IMG/VR virus record: IMGVR_UViG_3300013121_000026
Span: 1 to 64,000 of that record
Length of the DNA: 64,000 nucleotides
Reading direction: 5' to 3' (one strand)
DNA from: a virus
Taxonomy: Duplodnaviria > Caudoviricetes
A program made the translations under genes and the position numbers. Positions 16,851-63,740 of the stretch are shown piece after piece; position 1 is the stretch's first letter, and the number at the start of each line of letters is the position of its first letter. A model generated the notes under the pieces. It ran no database searches. It saw nothing but the letters and a program-made list of their open reading frames with translations, and was not told where the DNA came from.

Positions 16851-17300
16851 ATGATTATTAATGTAACTTCAACATATACACTGTCCGCAGGTCATTATGT
16901 TATAGGTGACCCTTGTATATTAATTCCCTCACTTTATTTTACAGAGCTAGAAACCACCAGCGACTTTTGGCGTCAGCCTAATGGTTATTTTGTTCTTAAT
17001 GGCGAAAAGATTGATGTAATAACCTACGAATTAACTGATGGTTATTATTACTTCGACCAGCACAATAATTTAAAAATCGGGCCTGAAATTTGCATAGCAG
17101 ATATTTACAAAAATAATCTATTGGAACTGAATTCCGGTATGATTTCTATTGTTAAATTTATAAATAAAATACATTCAAAACTACTAAAGAATGACTACGT
17201 GTCTTTGAAATCCAAAAAAGAATTCAGTGTGTTTGAAAACAAGGACCACGTTCAATTTGGAAACATTGCTTATAAAAAAACAAAAATGGAGAGTACCTAA
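16851..17300 (+). CDS. Hypothetical protein
   Basis: ORF with GHYVIGDPC motif and RBS. Confidence 0.55.
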   Translation: MIINVTSTYTLSAGHYVIGDPCILIPSLYFTELETTSDFWRQPNGYFVLNGEKIDVITYELTDGYYYFDQHNNLKIGPEICIADIYKNNLLELNSGMISIVKFINKIHSKLLKNDYVSLKSKKEFSVFENKDHVQFGNIAYKKTKMEST

Positions 17301-18646
17301 TGAAAAACACCACGCCCTTTCAATCATATGTTTACAAAAGTCGTTATTCAAGATTTTTGCATGATAAAGGACGTCGTGAAAATTGGGATGAAACAGTTGC
17401 TAGATATTTTGATTTCTTTACCGAACATCTTAAGAAAACCTGCAATTACACCTTAGATTCCGAGCTTAGAAAAGAACTGGAAACTGCGGTTCTTAATTTT
17501 GAAGTAATGCCTTCAATGCGAGGAATTATGACTGCAGGTCCTGCATTAGAGCGAGATCCCGGAGCAATCTATAATTGCGCTTATACAGTAGCAGACAATC
17601 CTAAGGTGTTTGGTGAAATTATGTATACCTTGATGCTCGGCTCAGGAATTGGATTCAGCGTCGAAAGACAATACGTAAACAAGTTGCCAACAATTCCCGA
17701 TCAGTTATTTTCCTCAGATACAATTATAACTGTAGCAGACAGTAGAATTGGATGGGCTAAGGCTACAAATGAATTAATATCAATTCTATATGCTGGTTCA
17801 ATTCCAAAATGGGACCTATCAAAATTGAGACCAGCGGGAGCCATATTAAAAACATTTGGTGGTAGAAGTTCTGGACCAGAACCACTAAAAAGAACATTTG
17901 AGTTTATCGTTGAAACATTTAAATCAGCATGTGGCAGAAAACTTACGTCAATTGAATGCCACGACATTATCCTTGTAATTTCTGAAGCTATTGTTTCAGG
18001 CGGTGTTAGAAGAAGTGCATTGCTATCACTATCTAATCTTTCTGATGACAGAATGCGATTTGCTAAATCAGGACAATGGTGGACGCTAACACCATGGCGC
18101 TCAATGGCTAATAATACAGCGGTTTATAATGATAAAAGACCTTCAATGGATACATTCATGACGGAATGGAAAGCATTGTATGACAGCAAGAGTGGTGAAC
18201 GTGGCATCTTTAGCAGGTATGCAGCCAAGAACGTAATTGACCGCGCTAATGCATTTAGAAAAACCCATTTTGGTGAACAAGCGCGAACAAGAAATACTGA
18301 ATTTGAATTTGGACTAAATCCTTGCGTTTCTGGTGATACAATTTTAGAAGTTTTAATTGATGAAATTTACCATAAAATAACTATTGAAAATTTAACAGCA
18401 TATTTAGAAAAAAATCCAAAAAGTATCATCAAAGTAAAATCTTACAATATTGAGGAAGACAGAATAGAATACAATGTGACGTCTTTTATTGGAGTTACTC
18501 AAAAAGATGCTAAAATATTAAAAATAACGGACACCATAACAGAAAAATCAATAAAAGTAACACCGGATCATCAAGTCTGGACGGAAAATCGAGGATGGAT
18601 TAGGGCGGATCATTTAAAAAGTGATGACATATTAAAAATTATATAA
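17300..18646 (+). CDS. nrdJ: Class II ribonucleotide reductase N-part fused to N-terminal split intein (from Cys at 18323)
   Basis: RRENW.ETV.R, MPSMR, YNCAY, VSGGVRRSA, GLNP|CVSGDT...VTPDHQV. Confidence 0.95.
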   Translation: MKNTTPFQSYVYKSRYSRFLHDKGRRENWDETVARYFDFFTEHLKKTCNYTLDSELRKELETAVLNFEVMPSMRGIMTAGPALERDPGAIYNCAYTVADNPKVFGEIMYTLMLGSGIGFSVERQYVNKLPTIPDQLFSSDTIITVADSRIGWAKATNELISILYAGSIPKWDLSKLRPAGAILKTFGGRSSGPEPLKRTFEFIVETFKSACGRKLTSIECHDIILVISEAIVSGGVRRSALLSLSNLSDDRMRFAKSGQWWTLTPWRSMANNTAVYNDKRPSMDTFMTEWKALYDSKSGERGIFSRYAAKNVIDRANAFRKTHFGEQARTRNTEFEFGLNPCVSGDTILEVLIDEIYHKITIENLTAYLEKNPKSIIKVKSYNIEEDRIEYNVTSFIGVTQKDAKILKITDTITEKSIKVTPDHQVWTENRGWIRADHLKSDDILKII

Positions 18647-18705: not shown

Positions 18706-19668
18706 TTGAACGAAATATCTGAATTTGCACATCATAATAATATGTCAATTGACGATGCCACATATGTTTTAAGAAACAAAAATCCAAGATGCAAATGTGG
18801 GGATTTTAAAAAAACTATGAACAGCCCTCAATCCAAAGTTGGGCAAGCATTATATAGAAATTGTGGAAAAATTAAATGTGAACACAACTATGGTAAAAAA
18901 AGACCAGAACATTCACAATATATGAAAAAATTAGCCAAATCTAATAATACTCGATATACTGCAACTCTAATGAAGAAAGGACAATTGTTTAATAAAGAAG
19001 TAAATAGTGTTTCATTTAAAAGAAAATTTTTATCCAACAAAAAAATTGAAACAGAACATTTAAATGACAATGAAGTTTTAAAAGTATTCGCTGATTACAA
19101 ATCCAAATTAGTAAAATCTAGGGAATATAGAACAAAAGAAATAATATCTTTTTTTAAGAAAAATACTAAACAAGAATTAGATATTCAAAAAATTAATAAA
19201 CTTAGTGTAGAACAATTTAATAGATTGTTTTATTTGTATAAAAGTGAGCATCATGATATATTCTGTTCTGCAGTTTGTAATGCAAAATGTTACAAAAGAT
19301 CGCTACTAACTGATTTAAAATTTAATATCAGGGGTCTTACTAGCGTATATACTAGATCATCATATGACACAAATTACATTTTATATTTTGAGAAAAACAA
19401 AATAAGATGGGATTATGAATTTAAAAACTTTAGATTGCCAGCAAAAAAATACAAACCGGATTTTTACGTTAACTATAACCAAAATAAATACATCATAGAG
19501 GCTAAAGGATTTTTGTTAGACGAAAAAGAATATTTTGATTTAAATGTATACCCATTATTAAATATAATTTCTCCCCTGGGAGTGAAGTATATTTTCAGTT
19601 ATAAATCAGAACCATATCAAGATTTTACAAAATTTTTAATAGAACACGAGGTTAAGCAAAAATGTTAA
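18706..19668 (+). mobile_element. Free-standing endonuclease, PD-(D/E)XK type, between the nrdJ halves
   Basis: C-terminal RSSY...WDYE...YKPDF...IIEAKG; N-terminal Cys pairs; AT-rich; TTG start. Confidence 0.8.
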
Positions 19669-20684
19669 TAATAGAAGAAATTACTGAAACAGAAGATGTA
19701 TATGATCTTACCAACCCAACGAATCATAATTTCTTTGCTAATGACATTTTAGTTCACAACTGCGCCGAGATTTTATTAAGAGACAAGGAATTTTGTAATC
19801 TAAGTGAAGTTGTCATTAAACAAAATGATACAATCAAAACACTCCAAAAGAAAATTCGCCTAGCAACAATTCTTGGAACGTTTCAAGCAACGCTAACGGA
19901 CTTTAGATTCATCAGCAAGAAATGGAAAGACAACACCGAAGATGAAAGACTATTGGGTGTTTCTCTTACTGGAATAATGGACAATGAATTAACGTCGACT
20001 AAAAAAGGGATTGATAAACTAAAAGATTGCCTAACAGAACTTCGCAAAACAGCGATTCAAACAAATCAAGAATTTGCAGACAAGTTAGGAATACCACATT
20101 CTGTTTCTGTTACTTCAATTAAGCCAAGCGGAAGCGTCAGTGCGTTGGTTGATAGTGCATCAGGTATTCACACTAGACATTCGCATTATTATATTAGAAG
20201 AGCTCGTTCAGACAAGAAGGATCCATTAGCTCAATACATGATTGAAATCGGTATTCCCTACGAAGAGGATAAATTTAATAAAGAAGCCTGGGTATTTTCC
20301 TTCCCTCAAATGTCACCAGAACATGCTATCTTTAGAAATGACTTGTCTGCTATTGAACAGTTAGAAATTTGGTTACTGTATCAAATGTATTACACTGATC
20401 ATAAGCCATCAGTTACTATTTCTGTTAAGGAAGAAGAATGGATGGAAGTTGGAGCCTGGGTCTATAAGAACTTTGAGTGGATGAGTGGTGTTTCCTTCTT
20501 GCCATATTCCGATCACATTTATACGCAGGCTCCATTCGAAGAAATCACTAAGGAACAATATGATTTAGCAATGAAGAGTATGCCAAAGGAAATTGACTGG
20601 AATAAGCTAGTTGATTTTGAAAAAACTGACATGACGACAGGAAGTCAGGAGCTCGCTTGCGCTGCTGGAGGATGCAATATATGA
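19662..20684 (+). CDS. nrdJ: C-terminal split intein (33 aa, ends HN at 19760) fused to NrdJ C-part
   Basis: VYDLT..NHNFFAN.ILVHN|CAEI; CNLSE, IKPSG, C-terminal ACAAGGC. Confidence 0.95.
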   Translation: MLIIEEITETEDVYDLTNPTNHNFFANDILVHNCAEILLRDKEFCNLSEVVIKQNDTIKTLQKKIRLATILGTFQATLTDFRFISKKWKDNTEDERLLGVSLTGIMDNELTSTKKGIDKLKDCLTELRKTAIQTNQEFADKLGIPHSVSVTSIKPSGSVSALVDSASGIHTRHSHYYIRRARSDKKDPLAQYMIEIGIPYEEDKFNKEAWVFSFPQMSPEHAIFRNDLSAIEQLEIWLLYQMYYTDHKPSVTISVKEEEWMEVGAWVYKNFEWMSGVSFLPYSDHIYTQAPFEEITKEQYDLAMKSMPKEIDWNKLVDFEKTDMTTGSQELACAAGGCNI

Positions 20685-33921: not shown

Positions 33922-34008
33922 GCTAGAGTCCCATAGTGGTCGAGTGGACTGGTTTTGTAATCCAGTAGGGTAACCTCAACGTGAGTTCGAATCTCACCTC
34001 TAGCTCCA
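33922..34008 (+). tRNA. tRNA-Thr(TGT) with long variable arm
   Basis: GCTAGAG/CTCTAGC, loop TTTGTAA, variable AGG-GTAA-CCT, CCA. Confidence 0.85.
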
Positions 34009-38425: not shown

Positions 38426-38501
38426 GCAAGCTAGGCCGATCTAGTGATGGCGACAGACTGTGGATCTGTTGAGGCTGGAGCGTAACCAGCAGCTTGTACC
38501 A
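38426..38501 (+). tRNA. tRNA-His(GTG), no G-1, A73
   Basis: GCAAGCT/AGCTTGT-A-CCA, loop CTGTGGA. Confidence 0.88.
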
Positions 38502-38587: not shown

Positions 38588-38645
38588 AGGATGCCTGCAG
38601 CAACTCAAAAAATCTTTCAGCAAAAAAGAGCAAAGGTGCATCCTG
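38588..38645 (+). ncRNA. Stem-NTNCNGCA RNA unit A (DUF2828-associated motif)
   Basis: AGGATGC/GCATCCT-G, CTGCAGCAA, internal TCTTT-CAGCAAA-AAAGA. Confidence 0.65.
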
Positions 38646-38654
38646 TTAAATTTA

Positions 38655-38774
38655 AGGCTATCTACAGCAACTAATTTGGGTCTTGTATACCCGTGGTCGT
38701 TGGTTCGAAGCCAACCTAGGTTATTTGTTAACCTAGTAGCTCAGTTTGGTAGAGCACGTAAAATGTATAGCCTG
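38655..38774 (+). ncRNA. Stem-NTNCNGCA RNA unit B enclosing a circularly permuted tRNA-Thr(TGT); Y RNA/YrlA-like
   Basis: AGGCTAT/ATAGCCT-G; order anticodon arm, T arm, loop-closed acceptor stem, D arm. Confidence 0.8.
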
Positions 38775-38785
38775 TTTTAATATAT

Positions 38786-38860
38786 ACGAGTGTAGCTTAG
38801 TCTGGTCTAAAGCACTGGTCTCCAAAACCAGCAACGTGGGTTCGAATCCTACCTCTCGTG
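38786..38860 (+). tRNA. tRNA-Trp(CCA)
   Basis: CTGGT-CTCCAAA-ACCAG, canonical T arm. Confidence 0.88.
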
Positions 38861-38861
38861 C

Positions 38862-40011: not shown

Positions 40012-40094
40012 GCGGTTGTAGCCGAGGAGAGTTTCTACCTCTTTAAACGTAACTGGAGCTGAAAATGCGGGTTCGAATCCTGCCAACCGCGCCA
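40012..40094 (+). tRNA. Aberrant tRNA-Arg(TCT)-like gene lacking a normal D arm, nested in the split tRNA-Arg
   Basis: GCGGTTG/CAACCGC-G-CCA, AGAG-TTTCTAC-CTCT, canonical T arm. Confidence 0.55.
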
Positions 40095-45844: not shown

Positions 45845-47221
45845 ATGAACGCATTTGTTACCGCAGCTCAATCACATGAAGCTCGCACAGAAAATAATAT
45901 GAAAGCATTGAACGCCACAGGCAACGCTTGTGTCGATCTTTTCTTCGCAATTGGTTCCTCGCGGAAAACCGACATTATTCCGCGATTTGTCGCCGCATAT
46001 GTTGAAAATCCTCAGGTGGCCATTCGTGTTGCCTTGTGGGCTCGCGATGCTCGGGGTGGCGCTGGTGAACGCAAGGTTTTCCGCGACATCTTGAACTATC
46101 TGTCTATTAACAATAGTGAATACACAGATCGAATTCTTAATCGAGTGCCTGAACTCGGCCGCTATGACGACTTGTTCTATGCGCCGAACCACAAGGGAAC
46201 CGCATTTGAAATTATTAAGAACGCGCTGGAAGATCCTACAAAGAAGGGTCTCGCTGCAAAGTGGATTGACCGCAAGGGAAACAATGCAGTTGCTCTTCGT
46301 AACTTTCTTGGACTTTCACCCAAGGCATATCGCAAGATGTTGGTAAATGCTACCAATGTTGTCGAGACGCCTATGTGCGCTCGTGAATGGGGAGCTATTA
46401 ATTACAATCATGTTCCTTCTGTTGCTTCTGCACGCTATCAGAAGGCATTCAATAAGCATGACGCCGCACGCTACTCAGTCTGGAGAAACGGTCTAAAGAG
46501 TGGTGAAACTAAGGTTAATGCGTCTGTTCTTTATCCTTATGAAGTTCTTCGTTCAATCCGCAGTGGTGATAAGGACGTAGCTTTGGCACAGTGGGAAGCA
46601 TTGCCTGACTATATGGGTAGTCAAAACATTCTTCCTGTGGTTGACGTGTCTGGATCAATGACGTGCCCAGCATCTGGATCAATCACTTGCTTGGATGTTG
46701 CTTTGTCACTTGGTTTGTACCTTGCTGATAAGAACAAGGGTGAATTTAAGGACACGTTCGTTACATTCAGTGGTCATCCTGAGTTGCTACATTTGAAGGG
46801 CACTTTGCTTCAGAAAATGGATCAAATGAATAATTCTGATTGGATGATGAACACTAATCTACATGCAGTATTTTCGCTAATCCTTAAGACTGCATTAGAT
46901 GCAAAGGTTCCTCAGGGCGACATGCCTAACACGATCCTGATTCTTAGTGATATGCAATTCGATTCATGTGTTGATCATGATGACAGTGCAATTCAAATGA
47001 TTAATAGAAAGTACACAGAAGCAGGTTACGAAATGCCTAAAGTTGTATTTTGGAATTTGAATGCAGGCTATAAAAACGTTCCTGTTAAGTTTGATGCTAA
47101 GGGTACTGCTTTGATTAGTGGATTCTCTCCGGCGATCATGAAGAGTGTTCTTGCTGCAGAAAACATGAGTCCGGAAGGAATTATGCATCTGACGATTGAC
47201 AACAACCGATACGACTTTTAA
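45845..47221 (+). CDS. DUF2828-type TROVE-like helical domain plus vWA protein (Ro60-related)
   Basis: RDARGGAGER, GRYDD, AAKW, MIDAS DVSGSM, ILSDMQFD, VFWNL, SGFSP. Confidence 0.85.
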   Translation: MNAFVTAAQSHEARTENNMKALNATGNACVDLFFAIGSSRKTDIIPRFVAAYVENPQVAIRVALWARDARGGAGERKVFRDILNYLSINNSEYTDRILNRVPELGRYDDLFYAPNHKGTAFEIIKNALEDPTKKGLAAKWIDRKGNNAVALRNFLGLSPKAYRKMLVNATNVVETPMCAREWGAINYNHVPSVASARYQKAFNKHDAARYSVWRNGLKSGETKVNASVLYPYEVLRSIRSGDKDVALAQWEALPDYMGSQNILPVVDVSGSMTCPASGSITCLDVALSLGLYLADKNKGEFKDTFVTFSGHPELLHLKGTLLQKMDQMNNSDWMMNTNLHAVFSLILKTALDAKVPQGDMPNTILILSDMQFDSCVDHDDSAIQMINRKYTEAGYEMPKVVFWNLNAGYKNVPVKFDAKGTALISGFSPAIMKSVLAAENMSPEGIMHLTIDNNRYDF

Positions 47222-63011: not shown

Positions 63012-63370
63012 TGGAACTGTTTAACATTCTAATCGCTGCTTATTTGCTTTGGATTCCAATTGCTATCTACAAAACAATGGTGGATTATTACAAAGTCTAT
63101 CAATTTGTCGAAGATAGCAAAGACGAGTTCCCGTATTTGTCTGCGGATATTTTTCGCGAGATCGAAAACTCGTCTATGATTTACTATTTTTTCAGAACAG
63201 TAACATTTTCCAGAAGTGCGTCACATTTTATCGAACCAATCAACATGATTATTAATAAAAAGTACAGTGTGGATGCATTAAGAAAAGATATTAAAATTAG
63301 CAAGGAAATTTTGGCTAAAATTGAAAAAGCACTCCAAACCAAACCAGTTGACAATAACGACGAAAAATAG
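63011..63370 (+). CDS. Hypothetical membrane protein
   Basis: N-terminal TM. Confidence 0.5.
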   Translation: MELFNILIAAYLLWIPIAIYKTMVDYYKVYQFVEDSKDEFPYLSADIFREIENSSMIYYFFRTVTFSRSASHFIEPINMIINKKYSVDALRKDIKISKEILAKIEKALQTKPVDNNDEK

Positions 63371-63456
63371 TATAAATATAACGTTATGTTCAGTACTGTG
63401 GGAAGTACAGGCCGACAACGCTAGGACAAGGTTCGAATCCAAAACATAACAATTGA

Positions 63457-63740
63457 TATTCAGAGACGATTTACAGTAGGTATTTCGGACGTGGGGGCGG
63501 TTCCCACCACCTCCACCAAGAGTAGATCTAAGCAGGAAACTGCTAACAAAACTGACCATGGAACGGTTGATCTACTCTTGATGGGGGGGTGATATAGGAT
63601 CGACGAGTATTGAGAGTAAATTTGAGAATATCTCGGTGGTTGAGCAACCAGATTATAAATGGCAACGACAACGTTGACTATGCACTAGCAGCTTAAGCTA
63701 GGCGGGGTTAGTTGGGTTCCTAGCAACAGAATACCCAACG
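63457..63740 (+). ncRNA. ssrA: Circularly permuted (two-piece) tmRNA; tag (A)GNDNVDYALAA
   Basis: 3' piece CACCTCC-A-CCA (ends 63518) precedes the 5' end GGGGGTG (63585) with G3-U70; paired intervening segment; tag ORF 63661-63696; outer ends approximate. Confidence 0.9.

What the first reader, a model, noticed from the sequence alone, without database searches (positions are those of the whole stretch)
38655..38774. Complete circularly permuted tRNA-Thr(UGU) held inside the DUF2828-associated stem
Seen: within AGGCTAT...ATAGCCT the order is anticodon arm (GGGT-CTTGTAT-ACCC), variable GTGGTC, T arm (GTTGG-TTCGAAG-CCAAC), acceptor 3' strand CTAGGTTA joined by a short loop to the 5' strand TAACCTAG, then D arm (GCTC-AGTTTGGTA-GAGC). 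It has no free CCA end. Known: bacterial YrlA Y RNAs have a permuted tRNA-like domain with a loop-closed acceptor, with the Ro-binding stem in place of the anticodon arm. Here the anticodon arm is retained. Inference: an unchargeable full tRNA mimic tethered to the protein, possibly a decoy for anticodon nucleases, or less likely a permuted precursor.
Basis: partly seen in the sequence, partly recalled or inferred. Interest (0 to 1): 0.82.

Follow-up and report, generated by a model that had tools for sequence, protein, structure and literature searches.

The report
Handle-tagged permuted tRNA mimic in phage
A 119-base RNA gene in the tRNA cluster of a T4-like phage encodes a complete tRNA-Thr look-alike. 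It is rearranged so that its acceptor end is closed and its own ends form the "handle" shared by the partner RNAs of the phage's Ro60-like protein; about ninety related phage loci keep this design with many different anticodons, and I found no description of it in the Y-RNA papers I could search.

Summary
Window 38655-38773 (+) holds, in this order: a 7-bp outer stem, the motif CUA-CAGCAA, a 5-bp anticodon arm (loop CUUGUAU, anticodon UGU), a 5-nt variable loop, a T arm, an 8-bp acceptor stem closed by UUUGU, U8-A9, a D arm and A26. Rotated at position 26/27, ARAGORN calls it tRNA-Thr(UGU); 1000 shuffles gave no call.

It is one member of a large phage RNA family. About 90 of 119 pattern-selected viral loci match a model of it, against 3 of 80 cellular loci. 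All helices covary (95% paired; covariation score 0.76 against 0.19 in shuffles). A YrlA-type alternative fold is at chance level (45% paired).

About a third of members carry a true anticodon-loop copy, with at least 12 different anticodons. Position 34 is U or G in 30 of 33.

The family co-occurs with DUF2828/DUF7788 genes, and the window's protein is predicted to fold like Ro60.

This member has no CCA, although 23 of the phage's 27 tRNA genes encode one. It also lacks the G1-C72/C2-G71 pairs of the phage's three Thr tRNAs. It is therefore most likely a non-chargeable, protein-tethered tRNA mimic. A decoy role is plausible but untested.

It is a new variant of the Ro60/Y-RNA (YrlA) theme. 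This scan has already flagged the same handle system in many other phage genomes.

The parts
38655..38661 (+). Handle stem, 5' strand (AGGCUAU), pairs with 38767-38773
   Evidence: All 7 pairs show compensatory changes and 96% of cells are paired in 59 relatives. The base of the stem, AGG...CCU, is conserved.
38662..38676 (+). Handle motif CUA-CAGCAA-C (CAGCAA at 38665-38670) plus linker UAAUU
   Evidence: The same motif follows the stem in the neighbouring unit 38588-38644 and in a unit upstream of the DUF2828 gene. CAGCAA was imposed by the pattern scan, so its invariance in the scan-derived relatives is not independent evidence.
38677..38693 (+). Anticodon arm: stem UGGGU/ACCCG, loop CUUGUAU (38682-38688), anticodon UGU at 38684-38686
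   Evidence: In relatives the inner pairs are 96% paired, with 13 and 22 double changes. Anticodon-type loops occur in 25 of 80 members against 1.9% of shuffled regions.
38694..38698 (+). Variable loop UGGUC (positions 44-48; G46; C48 for the G15:C48 pair)
   Evidence: Read from the sequence. NGGUC recurs in relatives.
38699..38715 (+). T arm GUUGG-UUCGAAG-CCAAC
   Evidence: 100% paired in relatives; 4 of 5 pairs covary. It matches the T arm of Rfam YrlA.
38716..38736 (+). Acceptor stem closed by a loop: CUAGGUU + A73 (38716-38723), loop UUUGU (38724-38728), U-1 + AACCUAG (38729-38736); no CCA
   Evidence: All 8 pairs covary and 94% of cells are paired. 66 of 95 relatives have a perfect 7-bp acceptor stem.
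38737..38756 (+). U8 A9, D arm GCUC-AGUUUGGUA-GAGC (38739-38755), A26 (38756)
   Evidence: D stem 98.7% paired. Its sequence equals the YrlA D-arm consensus GUAGCUCAnuuuGGUAGAGC.
38757..38766 (+). A-rich 3' linker CGUAAAAUGU back to the handle
   Evidence: Relatives carry similar CGUAAAA/CGAAAAGA tails.
38767..38773 (+). Handle stem, 3' strand (AUAGCCU)
38588..38644 (+). Neighbouring handle unit without a tRNA body (AGGAUGC-CUG-CAGCAA...GCAUCCU), 10 nt upstream
   Evidence: It has a weak Rfam match to Dictyostelium Class I RNA, 22.2 bits.
45845..47221 (+). Presumed protein partner: DUF2828 + DUF7788 protein, predicted Ro60/TROVE-like ring with a vWA domain
   Evidence: Pfam match. AlphaFold2 model with pLDDT 78. 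Foldseek top hits over the full length are phage phiLo Ro60, Xenopus Ro60 and D. radiodurans Rsr, E 4e-9 to 3e-7, TM about 0.6.

Best explanation
The element is a small non-coding RNA made from the phage's tRNA operon. It works like a Y RNA. Its two ends pair into a 7-bp stem followed by CUA-CAGCAA. This is the 'handle' shared with the hairpin units beside the DUF2828 gene, and it is inferred to dock the RNA on that Ro60-like ring protein. The rest folds as a full L-shaped tRNA. The chain enters at position 27 and leaves at position 26, and the acceptor stem is closed by a 5-nt loop. The RNA therefore displays a tRNA-Thr(UGU) body and anticodon loop but cannot be aminoacylated as made. I infer that the particle offers this look-alike to a factor that reads tRNA anticodon arms. 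The most likely such factor is a host anticodon nuclease or another tRNA-targeting defence enzyme, with the RNA acting as bait or decoy. Shown: the fold, the family, the changing anticodons, the genomic link to the protein family and the Ro60-like predicted fold. Inferred: binding to the protein, absence of charging, and the bait or decoy role.
For: Fold: ARAGORN calls the rotated sequence tRNA-Thr(UGU), with 0 calls in 1000 shuffles. The cloverleaf scores -31.2 kcal/mol against -18.7 for the alternative. Family: model R1 finds full-length matches in about 90 of 119 pattern-selected viral loci but only 3 of 80 cellular loci selected by the same pattern. Covariation: 95.1% paired, score 0.762 against 0.186 in shuffles and 0.06-0.14 with slid partners. 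Anticodon arm: strict anticodon arms in 33 of 81 parsed members with at least 12 anticodons. Position 34 is U or G in 30 of 33 although the adjacent linkers are 45% A and 2% G, and there are no stop-reading triplets. Redundancy: 11 of 14 tRNA-rich loci also encode an ordinary tRNA with the same anticodon. Not a working tRNA here: no CCA while 23 of 27 tRNA genes of this phage encode it; A1-U72/A2-U71 where the three Thr tRNAs have G1-C72/C2-G71. Across phages whose tRNA genes encode CCA, 33 of 39 mimics lack it. Protein link: a DUF2828 homologue lies within the fetched flank of 37 of 119 loci. DUF7788 is present in 9 of 10 complete records among the remaining loci. Relatives lie directly upstream of the gene in L005, L018 and L004. 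The protein is predicted to fold like Ro60. Conflict context: the phage encodes a T4 Rnl1-type RNA ligase. Thr(UGU), Lys(UUU) and Asn(GUU), which are frequent among the mimics, are the targets of the PARIS nuclease AriB (PMC12409363).
Against: There are no binding data. In this phage the protein gene is 7 kb away. Roughly two thirds of family members have a different hairpin, or none, at the anticodon-arm position, so the core function does not need an anticodon. The mimic's U36-A37-U38-A39-C40-C41 differs from the UAAUC|A site that E. coli AriB requires; U39-to-A abolishes cleavage there. The anticodon spectrum also matches what AT-rich phages encode as ordinary tRNAs, so its overlap with nuclease targets may be coincidental. 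[quoted passage not shown]
Confidence: 0.5

Rival explanations
1. It is a Y-RNA-type tether. The handle binds the Ro60-like ring and the tRNA-shaped body recruits a host tRNA-binding or RNA-decay enzyme (as Y RNA tethers PNPase in RYPER), for RNA surveillance or to hijack that enzyme. The anticodon loop is incidental or only fine-tunes which partner is recruited.
For: D. radiodurans Y RNA and phage phiLo Yrl RNAs tether Ro60 to PNPase (PMC4201824; PMC12135203). [quoted passage not shown] The D arm equals the YrlA consensus.
Against: It does not explain why a third of members copy genuine anticodon loops with tRNA-like wobble bases, or why the triplet changes between close relatives, for example GAA against UAA on the same stem in L005 and L109.
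Confidence: 0.25
2. It is a true permuted tRNA gene. RNase P and 3' trimming open the acceptor loop and CCA is added. The resulting two-piece tRNA, held together by the acceptor and handle stems like the two-piece tmRNA of the same phage, is charged with threonine and decodes ACA/ACG.
For: M. smegmatis YrlA with a 7-bp acceptor stem is cleaved by RNase P and gains CCA in vivo. This element has a 7-bp acceptor stem plus A73 and all tRNA core nucleotides. 8-11 of 95 relatives encode N73-CCA, against 1.6% expected, and only in phages whose tRNA genes encode CCA. The only ordinary Thr(UGU) gene of this phage has an odd long variable arm. The phage carries a permuted tmRNA.
Against: This member has no CCA although 85% of the phage's tRNA genes have one. 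It lacks the G1-C72/C2-G71 pairs present in all three Thr tRNAs of the phage. G000 has no CCA-adding enzyme gene. Mimics usually duplicate an anticodon already supplied by an ordinary tRNA. Many members lack an anticodon loop. The shared handle links it to non-tRNA units.
Confidence: 0.12
3. It is a functionless remnant: the junction of two tandem tRNA genes or a decayed rearrangement.
For: The element sits inside a dense tRNA array. Tandem tRNAs can imitate a T arm followed by a D arm, and a few model hits were such cases, for example L068:2563 and L051:8683.
Against: There is no D arm upstream and no anticodon arm downstream. The acceptor strands are mutually complementary. The outer stem and all helices are conserved with compensatory changes in about 90 loci.
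Confidence: 0.03

Closest known systems
Bacterial and phage YrlA Y RNAs with Ro60/Rsr (Rfam RF02553; Chen et al. 2014, PMC4201824; Wang et al. 2018, bioRxiv 10.1101/312249)
   Same: tRNA-like module with T arm, D arm, tRNA tertiary nucleotides and a loop-closed acceptor stem. The 5' and 3' ends form a protein-binding stem. It is encoded with a Ro60-shaped protein. The D-arm sequence is identical to the YrlA consensus, and the element gives a sub-threshold RF02553 match of 44.4 bits.
   Different: YrlA lacks the anticodon loop: its anticodon stem is open and continues into the Ro-binding helix. Here a closed anticodon hairpin is kept and the chain is broken at position 26/27. The handle motif is CAGCAA rather than GNCGAAN0-1G. 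The protein is DUF2828/DUF7788 and resembles Ro60 only at the level of predicted fold. No relative reaches the RF02553 cut-off.
Thermus phage phiLo Ro60 with Yrl1/Yrl2 (PMC12135203; PDB 9KOP, 9L5Y)
   Same: A phage-encoded Ro60 ring with phage-encoded partner RNAs near its gene. It is the best structural match to the model of the window's protein.
   Different: Yrl1 and Yrl2 are stem-bulge-stem RNAs with a CGAA motif; no tRNA module or anticodon arm is reported for them.
Circularly permuted tRNA genes of Cyanidioschyzon merolae and other algae (from memory: Soma et al. 2007)
   Same: The gene order is 3' half, short spacer, 5' half, and a full cloverleaf is recovered after rotation.
   Different: Those genes are matured through a circular intermediate made by the eukaryotic/archaeal splicing endonuclease and ligase, and they yield ordinary tRNAs. 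Here there is a conserved handle stem at the break, no such machinery is expected in bacteria, there is no CCA, and the element is linked to a Ro60-like protein.
Two-piece (permuted) tmRNA, one of which is in this window at 63344-63740 (RF01849/RF04321)
   Same: A permuted tRNA-like domain whose acceptor strands are encoded 3' strand first, with an intervening loop.
   Different: The tmRNA loop is excised to give a chargeable CCA end, and SmpB replaces the anticodon arm. Here the anticodon arm is present and this member encodes no CCA.
Dictyostelium Class I RNAs (RF01414)
   Same: A terminal stem followed by a conserved ...ACAGCAA-type motif. The neighbouring unit 38588-38644 gives a weak match of 22.2 bits.
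   Different: The match is below the cut-off of 41.5 bits. Those are eukaryotic RNAs with no tRNA module, and I did not pursue the relationship.

Membership tests
YrlA (Rfam RF02553) | Score at or above the curated gathering cut-off (69 bits) | tested here: not met
   44.4 bits in the window. There is no YrlA hit at gathering threshold in 11 relatives' loci. Mycobacteriophage Calm scores 39.8 bits.
YrlA (Rfam RF02553) | tRNA-like domain: T arm, D arm, loop-closed acceptor stem | tested here: met
YrlA (Rfam RF02553) | No anticodon loop; the anticodon-stem strands come from the 5' and 3' parts and run into the Ro-binding helix | tested here: not met
   That pairing is 45% paired across relatives, near the 39% of shuffles, and costs 12.5 kcal/mol here. 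The hairpin is supported instead.
YrlA (Rfam RF02553) | GNCGAAN0-1G motif in the Ro-binding region (PMC4201824) | tested here: not met
   The only CGAA in the element is in the T loop. The handle carries CUA-CAGCAA.
YrlA (Rfam RF02553) | Encoded near a TROVE-domain Ro60/Rsr gene on the same strand | tested here: inconclusive
   It is on the same strand but 7 kb away. The protein matches DUF2828/DUF7788, not Pfam TROVE. A profile search against PDB sequences found nothing. The predicted fold matches Ro60.
Canonical tRNA (RF00005) | Contiguous cloverleaf with free 5' and 3' acceptor ends | tested here: not met
   ARAGORN and Rfam do not call it in native order. It is called only after rotation.
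Canonical tRNA (RF00005) | 3' CCA, encoded or added, and aminoacylation | not testable with these tools
   CCA is not encoded here, while 23 of 27 tRNA genes of the phage encode it. Addition after cleavage cannot be tested in silico.
CAGCAA-handle RNAs linked to DUF2828 (family defined within this scan, not published) | 7-bp terminal stem, then 3 nt, then CAGCAA on the 5' side, and an A-rich 3' linker | tested here: met
CAGCAA-handle RNAs linked to DUF2828 (family defined within this scan, not published) | Genome also encodes a DUF2828/DUF7788 protein | tested here: met
   Window 45845-47221. 37 of 119 loci have it within the flank. 9 of 10 complete records among the others have it.
Permuted tRNA genes (algal type) | Maturation through a circular intermediate at a bulge-helix-bulge junction to an ordinary tRNA | not testable with these tools
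   The ends form a plain 7-bp stem with an asymmetric internal loop. No splicing endonuclease is expected in a bacterial host (inference).

The most novel reading that the evidence does not exclude
Phage Ro60-like particles carry exchangeable tRNA 'bait' cartridges: whole tRNA replicas whose anticodon is swapped during the arms race to soak up, sense or redirect host anticodon nucleases. In addition, the roughly 10% of members that encode N73-CCA are opened into two-piece, chargeable tRNAs that stay bound to the ring. This would be a new class of viral counter-defence RNP and the first split tRNA in bacterial viruses.
Probability: 0.2. Interest if true: 0.88.

Novelty: new variant of a known kind. 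Interest (0 to 1): 0.7.

Why it matters
Ro60/Y-RNA particles are conserved from bacteria to humans, yet the purpose of the tRNA-like domain of bacterial Y RNAs is an open question. Published YrlA RNAs lack an anticodon loop. Here a widespread phage branch keeps a genuine one and varies it: Thr, Lys, Asn, Phe, Arg, Ile, Tyr, Met, Ser, Leu and Gly. This points to anticodon-reading partners and makes the question testable. The DUF2828 protein family occurs in 707 cultured phage records. Related handle RNAs sit beside it in Citrobacter phage Ci1, where one is mis-annotated as a tRNA pseudogene, and in cluster L mycobacteriophages. It also matters for annotation, because these genes are invisible to tRNA finders and to Rfam at curated thresholds.

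Tried and rejected
- **YrlA-type fold** (anticodon loop paired with the 3' tail). It was suggested by the cmscan alignment. I rejected it: 45% paired in relatives against 39% in shuffles, and -18.7 against -31.2 kcal/mol here.
- **Junction of tandem tRNA genes.** Rejected, because the flanks carry the handle rather than tRNA halves and the design is conserved.
- **Sequence-level link of the protein to Ro60.** A profile search against PDB sequences gave nothing; only the predicted fold matches.
- **Generic "any hairpin" test at the anticodon position.** It was uninformative because 80% of shuffled regions also gave a hairpin. Only the anticodon-type criterion discriminates: 31% observed against 1.9% in shuffles.
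- **Felixounavirus locus** (E. coli phage DE7, L261). Model R1 found no match at E <= 1 within 4 kb of its DUF2828 gene.
- **blastn of the region against cultured phages.** It found only ordinary tRNA similarity.
- **Literature.** DUF2828 appears in 5 held papers, none about RNA. "Permuted tRNA" together with bacteriophage gave nothing relevant. The supplements of Chen et al. 2014 are not held, so I could not check which 22 phages they listed.
- **AriB site comparison.** The mimic does not carry the E. coli AriB cleavage motif.

Full report
**What is in the window**

The genome (G000) is a complete 160,761-bp IMG/VR virus record with direct terminal repeats. It has T4-type genes: family B DNA polymerase, DnaB-type helicase, T4 RNase H and an Rnl1-type RNA ligase. 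Window 26-45 kb is a + strand array of about 27 tRNA genes, and a permuted tmRNA lies at 63.3 kb.

The element sits between tRNA-His (38426-38498) plus a small handle unit (38588-38644) and tRNA-Trp (38786-38861). It has no promoter or terminator of its own, so it is presumably cut out of the tRNA operon transcript.

**Checking the observation**

The sequence at 38655-38773 reads as follows:
- AGGCUAU (outer stem, 5' strand)
- CUACAGCAAC-UAAUU (motif and linker)
- UGGGU-CUUGUAU-ACCCG (anticodon arm)
- UGGUC (variable loop)
- GUUGG-UUCGAAG-CCAAC (T arm)
- CUAGGUUA-UUUGU-UAACCUAG (closed acceptor)
- UA
- GCUC-AGUUUGGUA-GAGC (D arm)
- A
- CGUAAAAUGU (3' linker)
- AUAGCCU (outer stem, 3' strand)

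All the usual tRNA core nucleotides are there: U8, A14, G15:C48, G18G19, A21, C13-G22 with G46, U33, A37, G53-C61 and U54U55C56.

Joined as positions 1-26 plus 27-73, ARAGORN calls it tRNA-Thr(UGU). None of 1000 shuffles of that 74-mer is called. In native order nothing calls it as a tRNA. The minimum-free-energy fold contains all these helices.

**Is the anticodon arm real, or is this an ordinary YrlA?**

Rfam's YrlA model aligns to the element at 44.4 bits, below its cut-off of 69. In that alignment the anticodon loop pairs with the 3' tail. I tested both folds on relatives.

A pattern scan of IMG/VR (CAGCAA...GGTTCGA...TGGTAGNG) returned 119 loci. About 90 of them hold a full-length R1 match.
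- *Control.* The same pattern in bacterial and archaeal genomes gave 80 loci, of which only 3 hold a full-length match. The pattern alone therefore does not create the hits.
The covariation score is 0.762, against 0.186 in shuffles and 0.06-0.14 with slid partners.
- *YrlA-type alternative.* It is 45% paired against 39% in shuffles, and 12.5 kcal/mol worse in this sequence.
- *Caveat.* The alignment was fitted to the model, and CAGCAA, GGTTCGA and TGGTAG were imposed by the scan. The stem covariation is independent of that.

**The anticodon arms across the family**

With a strict definition (at least 4 of 5 stem pairs, a 7-nt loop with U33 and a purine at 37, and a 4-5 nt variable loop), 33 of 81 parsed members have an anticodon arm. 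A second parser gave 25 of 80, against 1.9% of shuffled regions.

The anticodons are GAA, UUU, GUU, UGU, UCU, GAU, GUA, CAU, UAG, UCC, UAA and UGA. None reads a stop codon. Position 34 is U or G in 30 of 33, although the adjoining linkers are 45% A and 2% G. The triplets therefore behave like real anticodons rather than free loop sequence.

Close relatives carry the same stem with different triplets, for example UUCGA-CUGAAAA-UCGAG in L005 and UUCGA-CUUAAAA-UCGAG in L109. In 11 of 14 loci with at least 14 neighbouring tRNA genes, an ordinary tRNA with the same anticodon is also present. Its loop is the same or nearly so, but its stem differs.

The other members carry a different hairpin (often 6 bp with a 4-6 nt loop), or nothing clear, at that position. 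The anticodon copy is therefore an optional cartridge on a constant body.

**The acceptor end**

Of 95 parsed members, 66 have a perfect 7-bp acceptor stem and most are closed by 2-8 nt. Eight to eleven encode N73-CCA straight after the stem, where 1.6% is expected.

These CCA-bearing members occur only in phages whose ordinary tRNA genes encode CCA: 6 of 39 such loci, against 0 of 20 where tRNA genes lack it. Equally, 33 of those 39 mimics lack CCA although their neighbouring tRNA genes have it.

The window's member lacks CCA although 23 of the phage's 27 tRNA genes encode it. It has A1-U72/A2-U71, whereas the phage's Thr(CGU), Thr(GGU) and Thr(UGU) genes all start G1-C72/C2-G71. From memory, these are ThrRS identity pairs in E. 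coli. The phage has no CCA-adding enzyme gene.

These points argue that this member is not built to be charged. The caveat is experimental: M. smegmatis YrlA, with a 7-bp acceptor stem, is cut by RNase P and gains CCA in vivo (PMC4201824).

**The protein partner**

ORF 45845-47221 matches DUF7788 (175 bits) and DUF2828 (93 bits). A profile of 11 homologues finds nothing in PDB sequences. An AlphaFold2 model (pLDDT 78, pTM 0.74), however, matches Ro60/TROVE structures over its full length. The hits include phage phiLo Ro60 (9KOP, 9L5Y), Xenopus Ro60 (2I91, 1YVP) and D. radiodurans Rsr (2NVO), with E from 4e-9 to 3e-7 and TM about 0.6.

A DUF2828 homologue lies inside the fetched flank of 37 of the 119 pattern-derived loci. 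Among the remaining records, 20 of 45 contain DUF7788, including 9 of the 10 that are at least 90% complete.

The same stem-plus-CAGCAA/CNGCA handle closes the neighbouring unit 38588-38644 and units in the 540 bp before the DUF2828 gene. Binding itself is inferred, not shown.

**Comparison with what is known**

Chen et al. 2014 described YrlA RNAs next to Ro60 genes in 254 bacteria and 22 phages. Those RNAs have T and D arms, a closed acceptor stem and a GNCGAA motif. [quoted passage not shown] Phage phiLo Ro60 binds two stem-bulge RNAs with a CGAA motif and can join host PNPase.

The present RNA shares the architecture and even the D-arm sequence of YrlA. It differs in four ways:
- a closed, genuine anticodon arm;
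- a break at position 26/27 instead of in the anticodon loop;
- a CAGCAA handle;
- a DUF2828-type partner.

No member reaches the RF02553 cut-off. I found no paper on DUF2828 and RNA or on permuted tRNAs in phages. I therefore class it as a new variant of a known kind.

Earlier notes of this scan report the same handle/DUF2828 system in many other phage genomes and elsewhere in this genome. Within the scan it is a recurrent find.

**Cultured relatives**

The protein family occurs in 707 cultured phage records, including Felixounavirus, mycobacteriophages annotated "Ro-like RNA binding protein", and Listeria, Staphylococcus, Campylobacter and Enterococcus phages.

Citrobacter phage Ci1 has two R1 matches right after its DUF2828 gene, one overlapping a feature annotated "tRNA-Pseudo-AAC". 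Mycobacteriophage Calm has three CAGCAA-handle units after its Ro-like gene, one with a tRNA body. They are unannotated in nearly all of the 73 related records. Neither shows a canonical anticodon arm, but both offer experimental systems.

**Mechanism**

- *Shown:* fold, family, variable anticodons, closed acceptor without CCA, genomic linkage and the predicted Ro60-like fold.
- *Inferred:* the handle docks on the ring, and the body presents an unchargeable copy of tRNA-Thr(UGU) to something that reads anticodon arms.

I favour a bait or decoy role in tRNA-targeting conflicts for four reasons. The triplet turns over between relatives. The mimics duplicate tRNAs that the phage also supplies. 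The phage carries the T4-type tRNA-repair ligase. Thr(UGU), Lys(UUU) and Asn(GUU) are the AriB targets.

This is weak evidence. The mimic lacks the E. coli AriB site, and the anticodon spectrum is also that of AT-rich phage tRNA sets. A tether role (recruiting a tRNA-binding or RNA-decay enzyme to the ring) and a processed split tRNA remain live rivals.

Noticed in passing
window 33922-34008 (+): The only ordinary tRNA with anticodon UGU is 87 nt and has a long, class II-like variable arm. It still has the G1-C72/C2-G71 pairs and CCA of the other Thr tRNAs. This is an unusual body for a Thr tRNA.
   Followed up: no
window 63344-63740 (+): A permuted (two-piece type) tmRNA gene with tag peptide GNDNVDYALAA matches both alpha_tmRNA and tmRNA_permuted. 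It is a second permuted tRNA-like gene in the same phage.
   Followed up: no
window 38588-38644 (+): A small handle unit (AGGAUGC-CUG-CAGCAA...GCAUCCU) lies 10 nt upstream of the element. It has a weak Rfam match to Dictyostelium Class I RNA (22.2 bits, cut-off 41.5).
   Followed up: partly
L029, L093, L135, L133, L125 (4077-4197), L060, L089 (1361-1469), L130: These family members encode N73-CCA directly after a 7-bp acceptor stem. They occur only in phages whose ordinary tRNA genes encode CCA. They are candidates for opened, two-piece forms.
   Followed up: partly
L262 13924-14160 (Citrobacter phage Ci1, OR515478.1 about 77135-77371): Two handle-tagged tRNA-like units lie just downstream of the DUF2828 gene. 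GenBank annotates part of them as 'tRNA-Pseudo-AAC'. A phage CCA-tRNA nucleotidyltransferase gene lies 4 kb further on.
   Followed up: partly
L260 3915-4165 (Mycobacterium phage Calm, OQ995440.1): Three CAGCAA-handle units follow the 'Ro-like RNA binding protein' gene, and the middle one has T, acceptor and D arms. The stretch is conserved and largely unannotated in 73 mycobacteriophage records.
   Followed up: partly
window 17300-18646 and 19662-20684 (+): A class II ribonucleotide reductase appears to be interrupted by an intein. The intein splicing domain matches at the end of the first ORF and the start of the second, with another ORF between them.
   Followed up: no
window 40012-40094 (+): A tRNA-like gene that ARAGORN cannot assign ('???', two-base anticodon). 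Rfam tRNA scores it at only 33.8 bits.
   Followed up: no
G000:C1:143295-143876 (+), outside the window: A T4 Rnl1-type RNA ligase gene (111.8 bits) is present. There is no RtcB and no CCA-adding enzyme in the genome.
   Followed up: no
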